From the NCBI GenBank assembly GCA_964571725.1, contig CAZNDB010000003.1, forward strand, positions 127,797 to 191,796: 64,000 bases of DNA, given 5' to 3'. The position numbers and the translations under genes were made by a program. Numbering within the stretch: the first letter of the stretch is position 1; every line of letters starts with the position of its first letter. Below the pieces are notes generated by a model. That model ran no database searches. It saw nothing but the letters and a program-made list of their open reading frames with translations, and was not told the DNA's origin. This DNA is from an uncultured Candidatus Peribacteria bacterium. GTDB lineage: Bacteria; Patescibacteriota; Gracilibacteria; UBA1369. Below are positions 20,422-28,700 of the stretch, in pieces.

Positions 20422-21480
20422 ATGGCTCAATTAGACAAAATCTTCAAAACCGCTGTTCAGTACAAAGCTTCCGATGTCTATATCACCACAGGTACCAAGC
20501 CCATTCTGCGCATCAACGGTAATCTGATCTCCATCGAAGAACATCCGGTGCTGTCCAAAAAAATGGCTGAGGACTACCTTTCCGAAATTCTAAGCGACAA
20601 ACAAAAGGAAGAATTTTCCCGCACTCTCGATCTCGACTTCTCTCTGGAAGTACCCGGAGTTTCACGCTTCAGAGTAAATATGTTCGTCCAAAGAAAGGGA
20701 ATCGGAGCCTGTTTCCGCGTCATTCCGGAAAACGTCCACACCCTGGAAGAATTGGGACTCCCGGATAAATTAAAGGAAATTGCCGTCACCGACCTGGGTC
20801 TGGTCATCGTAACCGGTGCCACCGGTTCAGGTAAATCCACCACCCTGGCCGCCATGTTAAATGAGGTCAACTCCAAAGACGCGCGCCATATCATCACCAT
20901 TGAAGACCCCATTGAATACGTCCATGAAAACGTTAAATCCGTCATCGATCAACGTGAAGTCGGCACCCACACCCTGAGCTTTCAGAAAGCCCTGCGTTCC
21001 GCCCTGCGTGAAGATCCGGATGTAATTCTGGTTGGTGAAATGCGTGATCTGGAAACCATTGCACTGGCTCTTACCGCCGCTGAAACCGGTCACTTGGTGT
21101 TCGCCACTCTGCATACCAACGGAGCCGCCGCTTCCATCGACCGTATCATCGACGCCTTCCCGACCAATCAGCAAAATCAGATCAGAATGCAGCTGGCCGG
21201 TTCCCTGAAAGCCGTAGTCTGGCAGACACTGCTCAAAACCAAAGACGGCAACGGCCGCGTGGCCGGTCTGGAAATCATGATCAACAACAATGCCGTAGCC
21301 AACATGATCCGTAAAAACAAGACCCATCAGCTGAACTCCGCCATCGAAACCGGTTTCAAAGAAGGTATGCAAACCATGAAGAAGTCCATTACCGAGTTAT
21401 TGGAAGCCGGAATTATCAGCGAAGAAGTCGCCCTGGAAAATATTCCCGAAGACATTATCGATAACAATGCCAACGCTTAA
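20422..21480 (+). CDS. pilT: type IV pilus retraction ATPase PilT
   Basis: 352 aa. Walker A GATGSGKSTT, IITIEDPIEY (Asp box), ILVGEMRD (Walker B), GHLVFATLHT (His box), and AVANMIRKNKTHQL in the position of the PilT AIRNLIRE motif. Confidence 0.92.
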   Translation: MAQLDKIFKTAVQYKASDVYITTGTKPILRINGNLISIEEHPVLSKKMAEDYLSEILSDKQKEEFSRTLDLDFSLEVPGVSRFRVNMFVQRKGIGACFRVIPENVHTLEELGLPDKLKEIAVTDLGLVIVTGATGSGKSTTLAAMLNEVNSKDARHIITIEDPIEYVHENVKSVIDQREVGTHTLSFQKALRSALREDPDVILVGEMRDLETIALALTAAETGHLVFATLHTNGAAASIDRIIDAFPTNQQNQIRMQLAGSLKAVVWQTLLKTKDGNGRVAGLEIMINNNAVANMIRKNKTHQLNSAIETGFKEGMQTMKKSITELLEAGIISEEVALENIPEDIIDNNANA

Positions 21481-21937
21481 CATCACAAAATCCGCCGCTC
21501 TGATTTTGAAAACCCTGCTGGTCGGACTGTTGTTGTCGTTGAATATTGGACAAACCGCCTGGGCGCAGCTGGACCGAAGTCAATATAGCCAGATGAATGT
21601 CGGCCAGGTACTTTCCCTCAAAGAAAACACCGAGGGACAAACCGGGGCTGGCGTTACGCAAGGCAGCCAGGATCAGAGTTATCTGAAAAGCAGCAACCCC
21701 ACCGCCTCTTTCATCCTGCAGGCCATTAACATGGTCGCCCTGATGTCAGCCTCTTTAAGCTTTCTGGCCATAGTCGTCGCCGGTTTTATGATGATGACCT
21801 CTACTGGCAACGAAACACAAAGAAACCGGGGCATCGAAATATTAACAAAGGCCATAGTCGGGCTGGTAATTACTTTGAGCGCCTATTTCATCGTAGCTTT
21901 CGTCCAGAATTTACTTTTTGAAACCGCCGGAAAATAA
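21467..21937 (+). CDS. TrbC/VirB2-like pilin family protein, paralog 1 (putative)
   Basis: 156 aa. Signal peptide (…TAWA|Q), variable ectodomain, then a TM-loop-TM hairpin LSFLAIVVAGFMMMTSTGNETQRNRGIEILTKAIVGLVITLSAYFIV. The start overlaps the pilT stop by 14 nt. Confidence 0.65.
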   Translation: MPTLNITKSAALILKTLLVGLLLSLNIGQTAWAQLDRSQYSQMNVGQVLSLKENTEGQTGAGVTQGSQDQSYLKSSNPTASFILQAINMVALMSASLSFLAIVVAGFMMMTSTGNETQRNRGIEILTKAIVGLVITLSAYFIVAFVQNLLFETAGK

Positions 21938-22618
21938 ATGAAAAAATTTGTCACAAAAATCTTGTTACTCACTCTTGCCAGTATCATTACGATTTCAATC
22001 TCGCAAGTTTCATTTGCCTTAACGCAATTTCAGGTCTGCACTTTTGTAAACAACCAAAACAAATCCGTTGACGAAAAAGTACCGGTAGACGATAGAGAAT
22101 TTTCAGACAAAATGGTTGTGATTACCGAAGAAAGACTGGGTGCCCCCGACAACAAAAACACCTTCAACTGCTACCGGAAAATTGAATGTACCATTAAACC
22201 TTCAGACCCCGCTAAAGCAGGCGAGAATCTGATCCGCAAATGCTCTACAACCTTCACAACTTCTTCCCCTTCCGGATGTTCAAACAGCAAAGAAATTGCT
22301 GAAGTATTGGCAAAAACACCGGCCGAAAACGACACCTACACCATCTGCGAACCCATTATGGTCTATGTCTCCGGAGCCGGCACGGAATTACTGTACTACT
22401 ACATGGGACAAATCTATAAGTACATAGCCACACTGGGCGGCCTGATTGCCGTACTTGCTCTGATCATCGCGGGAATCATGCGTTCAACCGCCGGCGACAA
22501 CACCACCCAGATCACCGAAGCCAACAAAATCATTACCAAATCCATAACCGGACTGGTGGTGCTGTTCTTATCGGCCATCATTCTTTACACCATCAATCCG
22601 AACTTCTTTGTAATTTAG
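21938..22618 (+). CDS. TrbC/VirB2-like pilin family protein, paralog 2 (Cys-rich ectodomain)
   Basis: 226 aa. Signal peptide (…VSFA|L), ectodomain of about 120 aa with 6 Cys, and hairpin LIAVLALIIAGIMRSTAGDNTTQITEANKIITKSITGLVVLFLSAII. Starts at the base after the paralog 1 stop. Confidence 0.6.
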   Translation: MKKFVTKILLLTLASIITISISQVSFALTQFQVCTFVNNQNKSVDEKVPVDDREFSDKMVVITEERLGAPDNKNTFNCYRKIECTIKPSDPAKAGENLIRKCSTTFTTSSPSGCSNSKEIAEVLAKTPAENDTYTICEPIMVYVSGAGTELLYYYMGQIYKYIATLGGLIAVLALIIAGIMRSTAGDNTTQITEANKIITKSITGLVVLFLSAIILYTINPNFFVI

Positions 22619-22621
22619 CCA

Positions 22622-23044
22622 ATGAAAAAACTTGCCCCGAAAATCAGCTGTAAATATGCCAGACTGTTCCTGCTCGGACTATATCTGCTGATTTCTTTTG
22701 CCAGTGTCTCGCTGGCCCAGGGCACCATCACCCAACCGCCCATTATCCCGAGCGGTGGTACCAGCACCGAAAAACTTTATATACCTCACAACACCTCCCA
22801 GGAATCCAACAAAACCTATATGGAACAACGGCTTCTGCCGGGCATAGCCAGTTCAATTATCGGTATTACTGGAGCCCTGGCCCTGCTATTCACTATTATC
22901 AGCGGCATACAGCTTTTAACCGCTTACGGCAACACCGACGCCGCGGGAAAGGCCCAGAAAACGCTGACCTGGTCGCTGATCGGTTTATTGGTCGCTGGCC
23001 TTTCCTATGCCATCGTCAGAATTATTGCCTCAATAACGGTATAA
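22622..23044 (+). CDS. TrbC/VirB2-like pilin family protein, paralog 3
   Basis: 140 aa. Signal peptide (…VSLA|Q). Hairpin ALALLFTIISGIQLLTAYGNTDAAGKAQKTLTWSLIGLLVAGLSYAIV. Confidence 0.65.
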   Translation: MKKLAPKISCKYARLFLLGLYLLISFASVSLAQGTITQPPIIPSGGTSTEKLYIPHNTSQESNKTYMEQRLLPGIASSIIGITGALALLFTIISGIQLLTAYGNTDAAGKAQKTLTWSLIGLLVAGLSYAIVRIIASITV

Positions 23045-23045
23045 A

Positions 23046-23636
23046 ATGATTGGAACAAAAATCACAATCAGAAAAATCCTGGCTACCATTGCGCTTTTAT
23101 GGTTGATTGTTCCTGCTGTTTGTCTGGCTGATCCCACGGATCCGGCCGTCCCCGCCGGTTCAAGCGGAACAACGGGCAGCCAGGCCCCCGCCTCCCAGGA
23201 CGCCGGCGTATCCGCAGACGAATTGTTTCAACGCTTCACCTACACTACCGAAACAACCGGCACCAAACTGGACGCGGTCAACAATCTGCCTCAAAAAGAC
23301 TGGAAAGCTTCACTGACAAGCATAATCAAAATTCTGCTCAATATCAGCGGCGCACTGACACTGCTCTCCTTTACGGTGGGCGGAGTAATGATGATCGTTT
23401 CACAGGGCAACGGAGATCTGCTGGAGAAAGGAAAACGCATCACCTATTATTCAGTGGCTGGACTGGTTATCATTGCCGTATCCTATGCCGTGGTAATCGG
23501 CGTATCCGAACTGCAGATTTTCACGCCGGGAGCAGGAGGAGGAGGGCAACAGAGCGGTAGTTCAGCGCCGGCGGCGCCAGCGGCACCGGCTAACGGAGGT
23601 GGCACCGTACCAAGTCAGGCACCCTCCAAATTATAA
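23046..23636 (+). CDS. TrbC/VirB2-like pilin family protein, paralog 4 (with G/S/A/P tail ending VPSQAPSKL)
   Basis: 196 aa. Signal peptide (…VCLA|D). Hairpin ALTLLSFTVGGVMMIVSQGNGDLLEKGKRITYYSVAGLVIIAVSYAVV, then a low-complexity tail. Confidence 0.65.
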   Translation: MIGTKITIRKILATIALLWLIVPAVCLADPTDPAVPAGSSGTTGSQAPASQDAGVSADELFQRFTYTTETTGTKLDAVNNLPQKDWKASLTSIIKILLNISGALTLLSFTVGGVMMIVSQGNGDLLEKGKRITYYSVAGLVIIAVSYAVVIGVSELQIFTPGAGGGGQQSGSSAPAAPAAPANGGGTVPSQAPSKL

Positions 23637-23642
23637 ACAAAA

Positions 23643-24167
23643 ATGACTAAAAAAATCCCAAAATTAATCCTGGCAATATTGGCCCTCACTATCTGGACAG
23701 CCGGACTTGGCACCGCTATGGCCATACCTTTAGACAATCAGGATCTGATGACCCGGGTTGTTCTTGATCCCAATCTAAAACCGGATAATTCACCGGGAGT
23801 AATTATCGGAACGGAAACTCTCGCCAAATCAGGCGCGGAGGCGGCCTTTGGAAATTATGTATTACAAATTATCGCCGGTGGACTGATCACAGTTGCTGCC
23901 CCGGTTGCCATAATCATTATTGCAATTTCCGGTTTGATAGCAGTTGTTTCACATGGTGAACAGGCACTCATCGATAAAGCCAAGAAAACTTTAACCTGGG
24001 CCATCATAGGACTGATAGTAATTATATTTTCCTGGGTCATCGTGAAAGCTGTAATAAGTGTAGTGATCAGTGCCAACAGTAATCCGACCACCCAAACCGG
24101 TACACCTCCGTCAACTCAGGGAGCGGGTACTGGAAACGTGCCAAGTCAGGCCCCCTCTAATTTATAA
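23643..24167 (+). CDS. TrbC/VirB2-like pilin family protein, paralog 5 (tail ending VPSQAPSNL)
   Basis: 174 aa. Signal peptide (…TAMA|I). Hairpin VAIIIIAISGLIAVVSHGEQALIDKAKKTLTWAIIGLIVIIFSWVIV, then a T/P/G/S tail. Its stop overlaps the convergent metG stop region by 11 nt. Confidence 0.65.
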   Translation: MTKKIPKLILAILALTIWTAGLGTAMAIPLDNQDLMTRVVLDPNLKPDNSPGVIIGTETLAKSGAEAAFGNYVLQIIAGGLITVAAPVAIIIIAISGLIAVVSHGEQALIDKAKKTLTWAIIGLIVIIFSWVIVKAVISVVISANSNPTTQTGTPPSTQGAGTGNVPSQAPSNL

Positions 24168-25753: not shown

Positions 25754-28700
25754 CTATTTGGCAGGAGCGGTTTGAGAACTGGCAGAGGACACTGTATCCT
25801 TTGGTTGATCGGTTCCATACAGTACTTTCTGATTGTTATAAAAATACCGCATTTGGTCCTGCGTGACAGATCCTTGCTTCAAGGCAGCAATGAAACTTTC
25901 TACAGTCATCCCTTGAGGCGGTACCAAAATATTTTTTATTTCTGGAAATTTATTGATCGTATCAGCAATTGTCCTCTGACCTGCTGAACCAACATTATAA
26001 TTGGATTCTACAATCAAGACACCAATTTTTCTGCCAGCTTCTCTGGCGGCATCAGTTCCTTCCCGTTCTCTGGTCATTACCGGCACAGCTTCCGGAACAT
26101 TGCCTATTGTGGCCGGAGCTTTAGGCGCCTGGGCTGGGGGAACCTGTGCTGGAGCCGCTTGGGGTTTTACCGAAACACCAGCCAGATAACCGGGCTCGTT
26201 ATTAACGGCCATATTGATCAGGGTTGAAACGGCATTTTTTTCAGCGTTCATGGCCATATGTCTGTTTCCCCCCTCCACAAAATTGTTCCAACCCGGTGCG
26301 ACAGATATTTCCATCCCCTGTGATGTTTTATAAAAATTCAGGGTCAGGGGTTTTTCGTTACCAGGCATTCCAGCCCGGACATTGAAACTGACTGAGTTTT
26401 CCGATACCGAGGAATTTCCTTCAATTCTTGACAAGAATAATTTACTCGTATCAAAATTTTCAGTTTGATTAATCTTGTTTAACGCAGCTAAAGGCAACTC
26501 TTTCCAGTTTGGAGAGTTGGCAAATTCTTTAAAAGTTGGATAAGGTTTTGTCTTTGCCTCCTGATATTCCTTTTGGGCTGCTGCTTGAGTCTCCTGATCC
26601 TTTTTATAACGGGGATATTCTTTCTTATTTTTCTTATTTTTCTCATTTTCCTGATATTCCTTATAAAAGGTCTTGGGGTATTTGATGACTTTAATTAAAG
26701 CCTCCTGAAAACGACGGTCATAGGTCTGCAAAGGCTCCGTGCTTTTCATCGCGCCAAGTTTAGTCTGAACCGCTTTCAAAGCTTCCTCCATTCCGGCGGC
26801 ATAAGCCTTTTGGGCTTCGACAAAATCTCCATAACCCATTGTATTCCAACCCGCTTCCGTCTGATCTGCGTTCAACAGAACTCCAACAAAAGCCCGCGTA
26901 CTGGGCAGATTTTTTAAGATATTCTTACCGTCCTTCTCCATTGGTAACTTTTCGTTATCATTGACCACGCTATCAAAGTTTTTTCTGAACGGAGTCCCGG
27001 CAATAATTTTCCTGACCCGTGATTGGTACGAAGAACTCTCGGTATTTTCCCCGTCTTTGGGTTTCAATTCCGCAATGGGAAGTTTTGAGATCAACTCCCA
27101 CATCTGCTTAATATAATATAACACTTTTACTTTTTCACCAGTCCCTGCCGGAGTACTATCCCCCACTTCTTTGGCCAGTAAATATTTTCTTACCCTTTCA
27201 TAATTTTCCAGTTTTGGAACGCCCTTTAAAACATTATCAACAGCTGCAATTTTTATTTTGTTGTCATTGGGCACTTCTGTCGGTTCCTTGTCATCATGCA
27301 AAACATTAATCTTCGGTTTCGGTTCCTCCGGAGGTTTCGGCTGTTCCTTACCAGGTTCCACAGTAGCCGGTTGTTCTTTTGGGGGTTCCAATCCCTGCGG
27401 TTTGACTATGAAATAGCCCTCATTTCTGGCCCGGCGAAACTCCTGTAAATTCGGTTCCGTCGGTGTACCCAAATTAAACATTCTGGCGGACATTCCATCG
27501 ATCGAAAGATAAGCAAGTCCATCCGGCGACATCGAAGTTATGCGTACATTATCAGGCCTTTCAAACGTACCGCCGAATGTGGCGGAATGCTTGGCGTTAA
27601 AATTATCCAGCATTTTACCAAGTCCTTGTTCAGATACCTTCTCTCCCCCCTTGGTAGTCATCTGTTCCTTCTGTACAGCCAGCAAGCTTAAAGCCTTATT
27701 AACTGCCATTCCTGGTTCTCCGTGAAAAGTCCCCAATTGTTGCCCGAGGGGAATCAGATTAAACTTAAAATCTCCATTACCGTTATGAATTATTTGCAGG
27801 CTCTGAGGCGGATCAAGTTTCTGCATCCAGTCAATCACCAGGATATGCCCCTTGTCTCCGGATTCCTGTACTTTACCGTTTGCGGCTTCCATATTGCGCA
27901 TAGATCTGATATTCAATACCTCTCCGGCATTCAGACTTCGCGCCATTGATTGAATCAATTTCAATCCTTTTTCTGGCCCCTTTTCAGTTCCCATTTCTTC
28001 AAAAAACCTTCTTTCCATTTCCGCCTGCTCATCGCGGGGATCTCTGTCATCCGGATGTTCCGCCCTATCCTGTAATTGTTTTAGAGTTCTCATCATATCC
28101 GAAAAACCACCTGCCCTAAAACGGTATTCACCTTGGCGATTAACACTGCTATGTACAACCCTGACATCTAGTTCGCCATGCAGCAATGACTTAATATTAA
28201 CGCGCGGATCTTTGGACAGCCCCACAGCCCAGTCAAATTCATATTGTACTCCTCCGTCTTTATCTTCGGGACCATTATCAACAGTCAATCCCCAGGCCTC
28301 AAAATTCGACTTATCTCTGACGGTCTTACTTTGAGCTTCCTGTAAGATAGACCCGTCATTTAATCTGGCCGCATAATACTTTTGCGCTTCCTGTAATCCG
28401 GCTTTTCCTTCAGCTTTAGGGTTATAGTCCGACAGAATTTTCCCGGAATCCATCCGCAAATAATAATCACCACTCTTACCTTTATAGAAATCACAGGCGA
28501 TTGCTCCATCACCAAGGGGAACATTTACCTTCACCGGAGGCCCGTCATTATATTGCAATATTTGCTGCAAAGCTGGCAAATACCGTTTATCCACCTCCGC
28601 AACATCTTTTTTATTTAATAATTTTGCCACCTCCTGTTCAGTCCCGTCTAGGGCCGTTGATTTGGGTTCTTTATCGGCCTTTTCCTGTGCAGCCTTGGCA

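What the first reader, a model, noticed from the sequence alone, without database searches (positions are those of the whole stretch)
23523..24167. Conserved C-terminal tail motif G(T/N)VPSQAPS(K/N)L on two of the five pilin paralogs
Paralogs 4 and 5 extend beyond the second TM helix with G/S/A/P/T-rich low-complexity linkers that have different sequences. Both nevertheless end in almost the same nine residues: ...GGGTVPSQAPSKL* and ...GTGNVPSQAPSNL*. The codons differ at synonymous positions (gtaccaagtcaggcaccctcc versus gtgccaagtcaggccccctct). That argues for selection on the peptide and against recent DNA duplication. Paralogs 1-3 stop right after TM2.

From the predicted topology (N-out, loop-in, C-out), the tail would be extracellular. 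C-terminal processing and head-to-tail cyclisation are established for RP4 TrbC, and cyclisation for Ti VirB2. A conserved terminal peptide could therefore be a processing, cyclisation, sorting or attachment signal.

A weak echo (…PAQAPKAPATIGNVPEAVP…) occurs near the C-terminus of the 1372-aa orphan, at about 26085-26175 on the minus strand.
Basis: seen in the sequence. Interest (0 to 1): 0.6.

Follow-up and report, generated by a model that had tools for sequence, protein, structure and literature searches.

The report
Matched fast-evolving tips on two pilins
Two of five neighbouring pilin-like membrane proteins in an ultrasmall (Peregrinibacteria) bacterium end in nearly the same nine residues, and across related genomes this end peptide differs between genomes but stays matched between the two proteins of one genome, so it is a co-evolving exposed tip rather than a conserved sorting or cyclisation signal.

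Summary
Paralog 4 ends ...GGGTVPSQAPSKL and paralog 5 ends ...GTGNVPSQAPSNL; the last 30 nt, stop codon included, are 26/30 identical, with 3 synonymous changes and 1 replacement. The motif occurs nowhere else in this 1.26-Mb genome and in no ortholog.

The closest relative (83-84% identical proteins) ends both paralogs in a different matched peptide, G[KQ]ENT[SA]PLPPS. In 21 Peribacteria genomes with tails on both paralogs, the last 16 residues of P4 and P5 score 37.8 within a genome against 19.3 between genomes (z=10.8, p<2e-5). Linkers and N-terminal regions show almost no such effect (z<=1.9). Sister genomes carry different tip pairs.

One genome has a 39-nt identical run, which points to recent DNA transfer. 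Most others keep the peptide while synonymous sites are randomised, which points to selection on the peptide.

Best reading: disordered extracellular stalks carry a short tip that is kept alike on two co-assembling VirB2-like subunits by occasional short-tract gene conversion plus purifying selection, and that is replaced quickly between lineages. It is not a universal processing, sortase or cyclisation signal. The "echo" in the 1372-aa protein is not supported. What the tip binds is unknown. This is a new variant of a known kind, of moderate interest.

The parts
20422..21480 (+). PilT-like ATPase (352 aa) heading the operon; its end overlaps the start of P1
   Evidence: PF00437 T2SSE, E=1.4e-50. 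The synteny pilT-P1..P5-metG(convergent)-giant gene is conserved in L021 and L065-L070.
21467..21937 (+). P1, a VirB2-like hairpin protein with no tail (ends ...LLFETAGK)
   Evidence: PF18895, 26.8 bits against a cut-off of 26.6. The end is conserved in orthologs.
21938..22618 (+). P2, a VirB2-like hairpin protein with no tail (ends ...INPNFFVI)
   Evidence: PF18895, 34.5 bits.
22622..23044 (+). P3, a VirB2-like hairpin protein with no tail (ends ...ASITV)
   Evidence: PF18895, 31.4 bits.
23046..23636 (+). P4 (196 aa): signal peptide, P/A/G/S-rich N-terminal region, membrane hairpin, C-terminal tail
   Evidence: P4 itself has no Pfam hit. However, 12 of 15 orthologs hit PF18895, and the P4 profile aligns to the P5 profile over the hairpin with hhalign probability 98.3%.
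23523..23606 (+). P4 stalk/linker (TPGAGGGGQQSGSSAPAAPAAPANGGGT). The proximal part, TPGAGGGG, is conserved among P4 orthologs
   Evidence: Alignment A3. DNA homology to L021 holds through the proximal tail and is then lost.
23607..23633 (+). P4 tip VPSQAPSKL (stop codon at 23634-23636)
   Evidence: It matches the P5 tip at 8 of 9 residues.
23643..24167 (+). P5 (174 aa): signal peptide, ectodomain, membrane hairpin (helices 65-104 and 107-145), C-terminal tail
   Evidence: PF18895, 28.7 bits. AlphaFold2 model with pLDDT 79-87 over the hairpin.
24072..24137 (+). P5 stalk/linker (ANSNPTTQTGTPPSTQGAGTGN). The proximal ANSN(P/Q) is conserved among P5 orthologs
   Evidence: Residues 147-174 have pLDDT <50, so they are predicted disordered.
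24138..24164 (+). P5 tip VPSQAPSNL (stop codon at 24165-24167, inside the 11-nt overlap (24157-24167) between the P5 3' end and the 3' end of convergent metG)

Best explanation
P4 and P5 are two of five Sec-exported two-helix membrane-hairpin proteins (PF18895, VirB2-like) encoded directly behind pilT. The gene order P1..P5 is conserved across the family Peribacteria.

In one subclade both proteins continue past TM2 into a disordered G/S/A/P/T-rich stalk of 30-45 residues that ends in a tip of about 9-16 residues. The tip is not a family-wide motif. It is replaced even between sister genomes, yet within each genome the P4 tip and the P5 tip stay alike.

The proposed mechanism has two steps. 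First, DNA is occasionally copied over a short tract between the 3' ends of the two adjacent genes (gene conversion or template switching). Second, purifying selection holds both peptides while synonymous sites drift.

Shown: the matched-within, different-between pattern; its restriction to the extreme C-terminus; DNA-identical tracts in two genomes; randomised synonymous sites in the others.

Inferred: the tip sits outside the cell at the end of a flexible stalk. This rests on VirB2-type topology (signal peptide, positive loop inside). Both subunits are inferred to need the same tip because they assemble into the same structure and present the same ligand or epitope to a lineage-specific partner that itself changes quickly. 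That partner could be a host-cell surface, a phage or antagonist, or a co-evolving protein of the bacterium itself.

VPSQAPS[KN]L is this genome's version of that tip.
For: Within versus between genomes:
- With 13 genomes, the last-16-residue Smith-Waterman score is 39.5 within a genome against 18.3 between genomes, and the own partner ranks first both ways in 10 of 13.
- With 21 unique genomes it is 37.8 against 19.3, z=10.8, and 0 of 50000 permutations reach it. With 22 loci (one tail pair sampled twice), 0 of 200000 permutations reach it.

Specific to the tip:
- Linker against linker gives z=1.9.
- N-terminal region against tip gives z<=1.8.
- N-terminal region against N-terminal region gives z=0.0.
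- Composition-preserving shuffles give z=6.7 for this genome and 8-11 for L021, L029 and L068.

Fast turnover:
- The sister pairs L001/L021, L024/L067 and L028/L029 carry different tip pairs (tree).
- G000 against L021 gives tail dN 0.44-0.59 against core dN 0.06-0.07.
- DNA homology to L021 is lost exactly in the tip region.

DNA transfer:
- L028 has a 39-nt identical run and L029 a 17-nt run, against a cross-genome maximum of 14 nt in 306 comparisons.

Selection on the peptide:
- In L068, 15 aligned identical residues share only 5 codons, including Ser TCT/AGT.
- L021 has Ser AGT/TCC and Leu TTA/CTG.
- Excluding L028 and L029, same-codon use at identical residues is 51/126 against 46.7 expected from codon usage.
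- In the window, the last 9 codons give pS 0.45 against pN 0.05.

Related genomes L068 and L101 share a VTPP-type tip on both paralogs, so the tip is conserved jointly. The tail is predicted disordered and follows TM2.
Against: - The function of the tip is not shown. No partner was identified, and surface exposure is inferred from topology rules only.
- Four to six of the 21 genomes show no clear match (L031, L043, L069, L100; L027 and L042 are weak), so matching is not obligatory.
- Tip segments were picked because they match. dN/dS computed on them is therefore biased downward, and the window's own estimate rests on 9 codons.
- The sequences are low-complexity, and gene conversion is directly visible in only two genomes.
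- Block exchange of the whole P4-tail-to-P5 segment between lineages could contribute to the apparent parallel turnover. P4 and P5 core dS against L021 is about twice that of pilT, P1 and P3.
Confidence: 0.6

Rival explanations
1. Neutral by-product. The low-complexity 3' ends of adjacent paralogs are homogenised now and then by gene conversion or slippage, and the tip has no function of its own. The match simply decays until the next event.
For: L028 and L029 have identical DNA tracts. The tails evolve about 7 times faster than the cores at replacement sites. Several genomes have unmatched tips. P4 lacks a tail altogether in many genera.
Against: In most matched genomes the synonymous positions are already random while 8-15 residues stay identical. 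Neutral decay would erase the peptide match at a similar rate. The match sits at the extreme C-terminus in nearly all genomes, and the equally repetitive linkers show almost none (z=1.9). The tails overall still have dN/dS of about 0.3.
Confidence: 0.2
2. The terminal peptide is a recognition signal for a dedicated processing, cyclisation (TraF/TrbC-like), sorting or attachment enzyme.
For: The tail starts right after TM2, where RP4 TrbC is trimmed before cyclisation (established knowledge, not tested here). The peptide is under selection. The genome encodes two S26-family peptidases and one sortase.
Against: Enzyme recognition motifs are normally conserved among orthologs, but here the tip differs even between sister genomes with 83-90% identical proteins. 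P1-P3 and many P4 orthologs have no tail at all. No peptidase or sortase gene lies in or beside the conserved cluster. The tails have no LPXTG, no terminal hydrophobic segment and no charged end.
Confidence: 0.1
3. Chance resemblance between two low-complexity tails, or a shared DNA/RNA element (terminator, ribosome-binding region) rather than a peptide.
For: The sequences are G/S/A/P/T-rich. The P4 tip lies just upstream of the P5 start, and the P5 tip overlaps the end of metG.
Against: The shuffle test gives z=6.7 here, and the family-wide permutation test gives p<2e-5. In relatives the peptide is kept with different codons. The metG overlap is absent in L021. The sequence downstream of the two stop codons is unrelated.
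Confidence: 0.02

Closest known systems
Tandem VirB2-like pilin arrays of Patescibacteria/CPR (PF18895/PF04956), as surveyed in Microb Genom 2025, PMC12102498 (bioRxiv 10.1101/2025.01.22.634366)
   Same: Arrays of 2-11 small signal-peptide-bearing two-helix proteins with low identity between paralogs (mean 25%). They are proposed to vary surface interactions with hosts, and an array is reported essential in Ca. Southlakia epibionticum. Four of the five genes here pass the PF18895 cut-off.
   Different: This array sits behind pilT inside a type IV pilus neighbourhood, not beside virB4. The VirB4-like ATPase is on another contig. The long disordered C-terminal stalks with matched tips on two paralogs were not among the passages of that paper retrieved with the terms PF18895, pilin, VirB2 and C-terminal. 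Other CPR arrays fetched here mostly lack tails.
VirB2 paralog arrays of Anaplasma phagocytophilum / A. marginale (PMC3556328)
   Same: Multiple tandem VirB2 paralogs whose diversity is concentrated in two hypervariable regions, one near the mature N-terminus and one close to the C-terminus. They are thought to be surface exposed and antigenically variable.
   Different: In Anaplasma the ends differ between paralogs. Here two paralogs keep the same end within a genome while it changes between genomes. The organism and envelope are also different.
Pilin antigenic variation by gene conversion (Neisseria pilE/pilS; own knowledge)
   Same: Short-tract, non-reciprocal DNA transfer between pilin gene copies changes an exposed C-terminal part of a filament subunit.
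   Different: These are type IV pilins with silent donor cassettes, and the process generates diversity within a strain. Here there is no silent copy in the genome. Both copies are full expressed-type genes, and the outcome is homogenisation of two different subunits.
RP4 TrbC / Ti-plasmid VirB2 maturation (C-terminal trimming and head-to-tail cyclisation by TraF or a host factor; own knowledge)
   Same: Signal peptide, two hydrophobic helices, and extra residues after the second helix.
   Different: There is no conserved cleavage or cyclisation motif across orthologs and no linked TraF-like gene. The tails are 30-45 residues of low-complexity sequence. Processing could not be tested.

Membership tests
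PF18895 T4SS_pilin (CPR/monoderm VirB2-like hairpin) | Sequence match to the family profile above the curated cut-off (26.6 bits) | tested here: met
   P1 scores 26.8, P2 34.5, P3 31.4 and P5 28.7 bits. P4 itself has no hit, but 12 of 15 P4 orthologs match at E<=0.01, and the P4 profile matches the P5 profile at hhalign probability 98.3% over 58 hairpin columns.
PF18895 T4SS_pilin (CPR/monoderm VirB2-like hairpin) | N-terminal signal peptide followed by two long hydrophobic helices joined by a short positively charged loop | tested here: met
   The AlphaFold2 model of P5 has helices at 4-25 (signal), 65-104 and 107-145, with pLDDT 79-87 over the hairpin. The loop SHGEQALIDKAKKT is read.
TrbC/VirB2 conjugative pilin proper (PF04956; T4SS pilus subunit) | Profile match, structural match to solved VirB2/TraA pilins, and linkage to VirB4 and other T4SS genes | tested here: not met
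   PF04956 is hit by only 2 of 15 P4 orthologs, weakly. Foldseek against the PDB gives nothing with E<=0.001. The neighbours are pilT, FtsQ-like, metG and type IV pilus genes. The VirB4-like ATPase lies on contig C4.
TrbC/VirB2 maturation by C-terminal cleavage and cyclisation | Conserved C-terminal processing site and a TraF-like peptidase | tested here: not met
   The tips are not conserved among orthologs. The two S26 peptidases of the genome are on C1 and C2, unlinked to the cluster. Actual processing cannot be tested with these tools.
Sortase substrates (LPXTG-type cell-wall sorting signal) | LPXTG-like motif followed by a hydrophobic segment and a positively charged end | tested here: not met
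   The tails end ...VPSQAPSKL and ...VPSQAPSNL, with no motif and no hydrophobic segment. The single sortase gene is on C1.
Type IV pilins (T4P, class III signal peptide) | N-terminal methylation motif (PF07963) / prepilin peptidase site | tested here: not met
   P1-P5 have no PF07963 hit, whereas true pilins of the neighbouring operon do.
Cassette-based pilin antigenic variation (pilE/pilS type) | Silent donor copies of the variable segment elsewhere in the genome | tested here: not met
   The genome has no third copy of the tip at peptide level or at DNA level (<=6 mismatches in 27 nt).
Concerted evolution of paralogs by gene conversion | Paralogous segments are more alike within a genome than orthologous segments are between genomes, plus DNA tracts of identity bounded by diverged sequence | tested here: met
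   Within-genome score 37.8 against cross-genome 19.3 (z=10.8). Cross-genome P4-P4 and P5-P5 tip scores are about the same as cross-genome P4-P5 scores. L028 has a 39-nt identical tract and L029 a 17-nt tract, against a null maximum of 14 nt. In the window itself the longest identical run is only 11 nt, so any transfer here is not recent.

The most novel reading that the evidence does not exclude
The tip is a lineage-specific recognition tag displayed on two different subunits of one Peribacteria surface filament or complex. It co-evolves with a rapidly changing partner: a receptor on the host cell these epibionts attach to, or a cognate protein of their own. The pair of matched tips would then act as a specificity code that is reset in both genes at once when the partner changes.
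Probability: 0.3. Interest if true: 0.7.

Novelty: new variant of a known kind. Interest (0 to 1): 0.5.

Why it matters
VirB2-like arrays are among the few gene sets reported as essential for the epibiotic life of Patescibacteria (as cited in PMC12102498), and how they contact hosts is unknown.

A short peptide that is held identical on two subunits, yet replaced between sister genomes, marks the part of these proteins most likely to face a changing partner. That gives a concrete, small target for experiments such as tip swaps, tip peptides used as baits, or antibodies.

It also shows that a motif which looks genome-unique, and would be dismissed as chance, can be one instance of a family-wide co-variation rule.

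Tried and rejected
- **Echo in the 1372-aa neighbour.** It is marginal against shuffles (p about 0.04, uncorrected). The orthologous linker in L021 does not resemble L021's own tip (p 0.2-0.7). Rejected.
- **Frameshift or stop-shift origin of the G000/L021 tip difference.** DNA alignments show plain loss of homology, with no frame relationship.
- **Third copy or silent cassette of the tip in the genome.** None found.
- **Structural confirmation of a VirB2 fold.** Foldseek against the PDB returned only non-significant helical hairpins.
- **Genome-specific composition as the cause of the match.** Controlled by composition shuffles and by linker and N-terminal comparisons; it accounts for at most 2-3 score units.
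- **P4 N-terminal 'GSQAPAS' resembling the tip.** It does not co-vary across genomes (z 1.3-1.8).
- **A second pair of PF18895 proteins on contig C1 (tails ...SVPNV and ...TIPNT).** In 25 relatives their tails are conserved among orthologs rather than evolving in concert. This was judged by eye only.
- **Other CPR arrays fetched.** They mostly lack tails, so the rule could not be tested there.
- **Longest-run artefact in L024.** The apparent 29-nt run came from my ORF start overlapping P4 and is ignored.

Full report
**What is there.** The window lies in a 1.26-Mb, six-contig genome. Its relatives are labelled Candidatus Peregrinibacteria / Peribacteria. A PilT-like ATPase (20422-21480; PF00437, E=1.4e-50) is followed without gaps by five small ORFs:

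| Paralog | Coordinates |
|---|---|
| P1 | 21467-21937 |
| P2 | 21938-22618 |
| P3 | 22622-23044 |
| P4 | 23046-23636 |
| P5 | 23643-24167 |

P1, P2, P3 and P5 pass the curated cut-off of PF18895 (T4SS_pilin). P4 does not by itself. However, 12 of 15 P4 orthologs do, and the P4 profile aligns to the P5 profile over the hairpin with 98.3% hhalign probability.

An AlphaFold2 model of P5, built on 25 orthologs, shows a signal helix and two long helices (65-104 and 107-145; pLDDT about 80-87). The tail (147-174) is unstructured, with pLDDT below 50. Foldseek against the PDB gave nothing significant.

The order pilT-P1-P2-P3-P4-P5, then convergent metG, then a giant orphan gene, is conserved in many genera.

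**The observation.** P4 ends ...PANGGGTVPSQAPSKL and P5 ends ...GAGTGNVPSQAPSNL. P1-P3 stop right after the second helix. The last 30 nt, stop codon included, are 26/30 identical, with three synonymous differences and one replacement. Similarity ends at the stop codon, and the linkers upstream are unrelated.

Against composition-preserving shuffles the match has z=6.7. The motif occurs nowhere else in the genome, either as a peptide in six frames or as DNA.

**The motif is not conserved, but the match is.** None of 46 P5 homologues carries VPSQAPS, including two at 83-84% identity.

The syntenic contig of the closest relative (L021) has P4 ending ...APGKENTSPLPPS and P5 ending ...KPGQENTAPLPPS. 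This is a different peptide, again shared by the two paralogs. The same holds elsewhere:

| Locus | Shared tip on P4 and P5 |
|---|---|
| L028 | GQGGAGGGGPLPP |
| L029 | GTG.AGS.TDTGP.AS |
| L068 | G.GGAQGG..VTPPPS |
| L012 | TEGG[NK]PST |
| L067 | GPKAG.SG |
| L009 | T/S-DAG end |
| L024 | GG.AGQAP |
| L065 | ESET |
| L070 | EGGVK |
| L026 | TSS.TGG |
| L101 | GGS.VTPP |
| L103 | GTT.P |

**Statistics.** I used 21 unique genomes that have tails on both paralogs.

- The Smith-Waterman score of the last 16 residues of P4 against P5 averages 37.8 within a genome and 19.3 (sd 6.0) between genomes. This gives z=10.8, and none of 50000 permutations reached the observed sum.
- With 18 genomes, the own partner was the unique best hit in both directions in 13.
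- Cross-genome P4-P4 and P5-P5 tip scores (15.7-19.3) are no better than cross-genome P4-P5 scores. Orthologous tips are therefore not conserved.
- Internal controls show that the effect is specific to the tip:

| Comparison | z |
|---|---|
| Linker against linker | 1.9 |
| P4 linker against P5 tip | 2.8 |
| P4 tip against P5 linker | 3.3 |
| P4 N-terminal region against either tip | 1.3-1.8 |
| N-terminal region against N-terminal region | 0.0 |

A maximum-likelihood tree of the concatenated P4+P5 cores places genomes with different tip pairs as well-supported sisters: L001/L021, L024/L067 and L028/L029. Between this genome and L021, DNA homology runs through the proximal tail and then vanishes in the tip region of both genes, without any frame relationship. 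Tail dN is 0.44-0.59 against 0.06-0.07 in the cores.

**DNA transfer or selection on the peptide? Both.** L028 has a 39-nt run of identity between the P4 and P5 tails, and L029 has 17 nt (about 45 of 48 nt overall). The longest run in 306 cross-genome comparisons is 14 nt. That is a footprint of recent short-tract DNA transfer.

In the other genomes the peptide match persists with diverged codons.

- L068 has 15 aligned identical residues but only 5 identical codons, and its terminal Ser uses TCT versus AGT.
- L021 has Ser AGT/TCC and Leu TTA/CTG.
- Excluding L028 and L029, identical residues use the same codon 51 times out of 126, against 46.7 expected from codon usage.

Synonymous sites are thus near-random while the peptides stay alike. 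This requires selection on the peptide. I note that dN/dS on tips chosen for similarity is biased, so I rest this point on the same-codon statistic instead.

In the window itself the last nine codons give pS 0.45 (3 of 6.7 sites) and pN 0.05. This is younger than, or comparable to, the G000-L021 divergence of the same genes (dS 1.2-1.6). It is consistent with a tip replacement after that split, but it rests on few sites.

**Interpretation.** The tail starts where TM2 leaves the membrane. The inter-helix loop is lysine-rich and the N-terminal domain follows a Sec signal peptide. By the positive-inside rule and by analogy with VirB2 topology (established knowledge, not tested here), the tail is outside the cell. 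A 30-45-residue disordered G/S/A/P/T stalk would hold the tip away from the membrane.

The simplest account of "identical on two subunits, different between lineages" is an exposed functional peptide that both subunits must present. It would be reset in both genes by occasional conversion and then held by purifying selection. What it binds is unknown.

**Rejected or weakened readings.**

- *Universal sorting, processing or cyclisation signal.* Such a signal should be conserved among orthologs, and this one is not. The genome's two S26 peptidases and single sortase are unlinked to the cluster, and the tails lack sortase-signal architecture.
- *DNA/RNA element.* This is excluded by codon divergence in relatives and by unrelated downstream sequence.
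- *Echo in the 1372-aa protein.* It is marginal and does not co-vary.
- *Purely neutral conversion.* This remains the main rival. It explains L028 and L029. It does not explain the persistence of peptide identity at random synonymous sites, nor the restriction of the match to the extreme C-terminus.

**Context.** VirB2-like arrays are widespread in Patescibacteria. There are 441 arrays of 2-11 genes with about 25% identity between paralogs. One array is reported essential for epibiotic growth (PMC12102498 / bioRxiv 10.1101/2025.01.22.634366).

Here the array sits behind pilT, next to a type IV pilus operon (PilO-, PilC- and N_methyl-type genes). A VirB4-like ATPase lies on another contig.

Anaplasma VirB2 paralogs have hypervariable regions near both termini (PMC3556328). 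That is the closest published analogue for exposed, fast-changing pilin ends. Matched ends on two paralogs were not found in either paper: the 2025 CPR survey and the Anaplasma paper were consulted only through term searches. Other CPR arrays fetched here mostly lack tails.

**Limits.** All sequences come from metagenome-assembled genomes or contigs. Function and topology are inferred. Four to six of the 21 genomes lack a clear match.

Noticed in passing
window 20422-24167 versus L021: Synonymous divergence from the closest relative is uneven along the operon. dS is 0.59 for pilT, 0.85 for P1 and 0.77 for P3, but 1.58 for P2, 1.19 for the P4 core and 1.61 for the P5 core. This could reflect recombinational replacement of parts of the array, or weaker codon constraint.
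   Followed up: partly
own genome, contig C1 about 311.4-321.0 kb (locus L099): There is a second PF18895 locus. It holds two proteins of about 340 aa, each with several VirB2-like hairpins. One ends ...ESVPNV and the other ...TTIPNT. They are followed by a 1587-aa protein with an N-terminal PF18895 hairpin plus PKD domains, and by an 860-aa PKD-repeat protein. The pair is conserved across the order. Its tails look conserved among orthologs rather than concerted.
   Followed up: partly
own genome, contig C4 about 72 kb (locus L071): An 829-aa VirB4/TraG-like ATPase (PF19044, E=8e-23; AAA_10; weak CagE_TrbE_VirB) is the only candidate T4SS ATPase found. It is unlinked to the pilin array.
   Followed up: partly
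window 24157-24167: The P5 3' end (stop codon included) and the convergent metG 3' end overlap by 11 nt in this genome. In L021 the two genes are separated by 5 nt, so the overlap is not conserved.
   Followed up: partly
L013 (G006) 1450-2115: The P5 ortholog runs on to 221 aa, with a non-low-complexity end (...RFALVTHTAVTLKIQNFQIIYHFQQKIIIFV). This looks like a lost stop codon or a frameshift in that assembly.
   Followed up: no
tails of many loci (L008/L028, L013, L030, L031, L042, L043, L068, L021): Despite the turnover, many tips end in a proline-rich theme...PLPPS...VTPPPS...PPAPTK...TPIPTK...KPIPQK...APPPGK. There may be a loose compositional constraint (proline-rich, often ending in K or S) beneath the lineage-specific sequences.
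   Followed up: no
L045 2508-2963 and 3429-3875: In a genus where P4 has no tail, the short P3 tail (...TSQTPPAT) resembles the P5 tail (...VTPPAATTSTTTP). Tail matching may therefore not be limited to the P4/P5 pair.
   Followed up: no
window 23121-23200 (P4 mature N-terminus): P4 has a P/A/G/S/T-rich N-terminal region containing GSQAPASQ, which is reminiscent of the tip SQAPS. Across genomes the N-terminal region does not co-vary significantly with the tips (z 1.3-1.8).
   Followed up: yes
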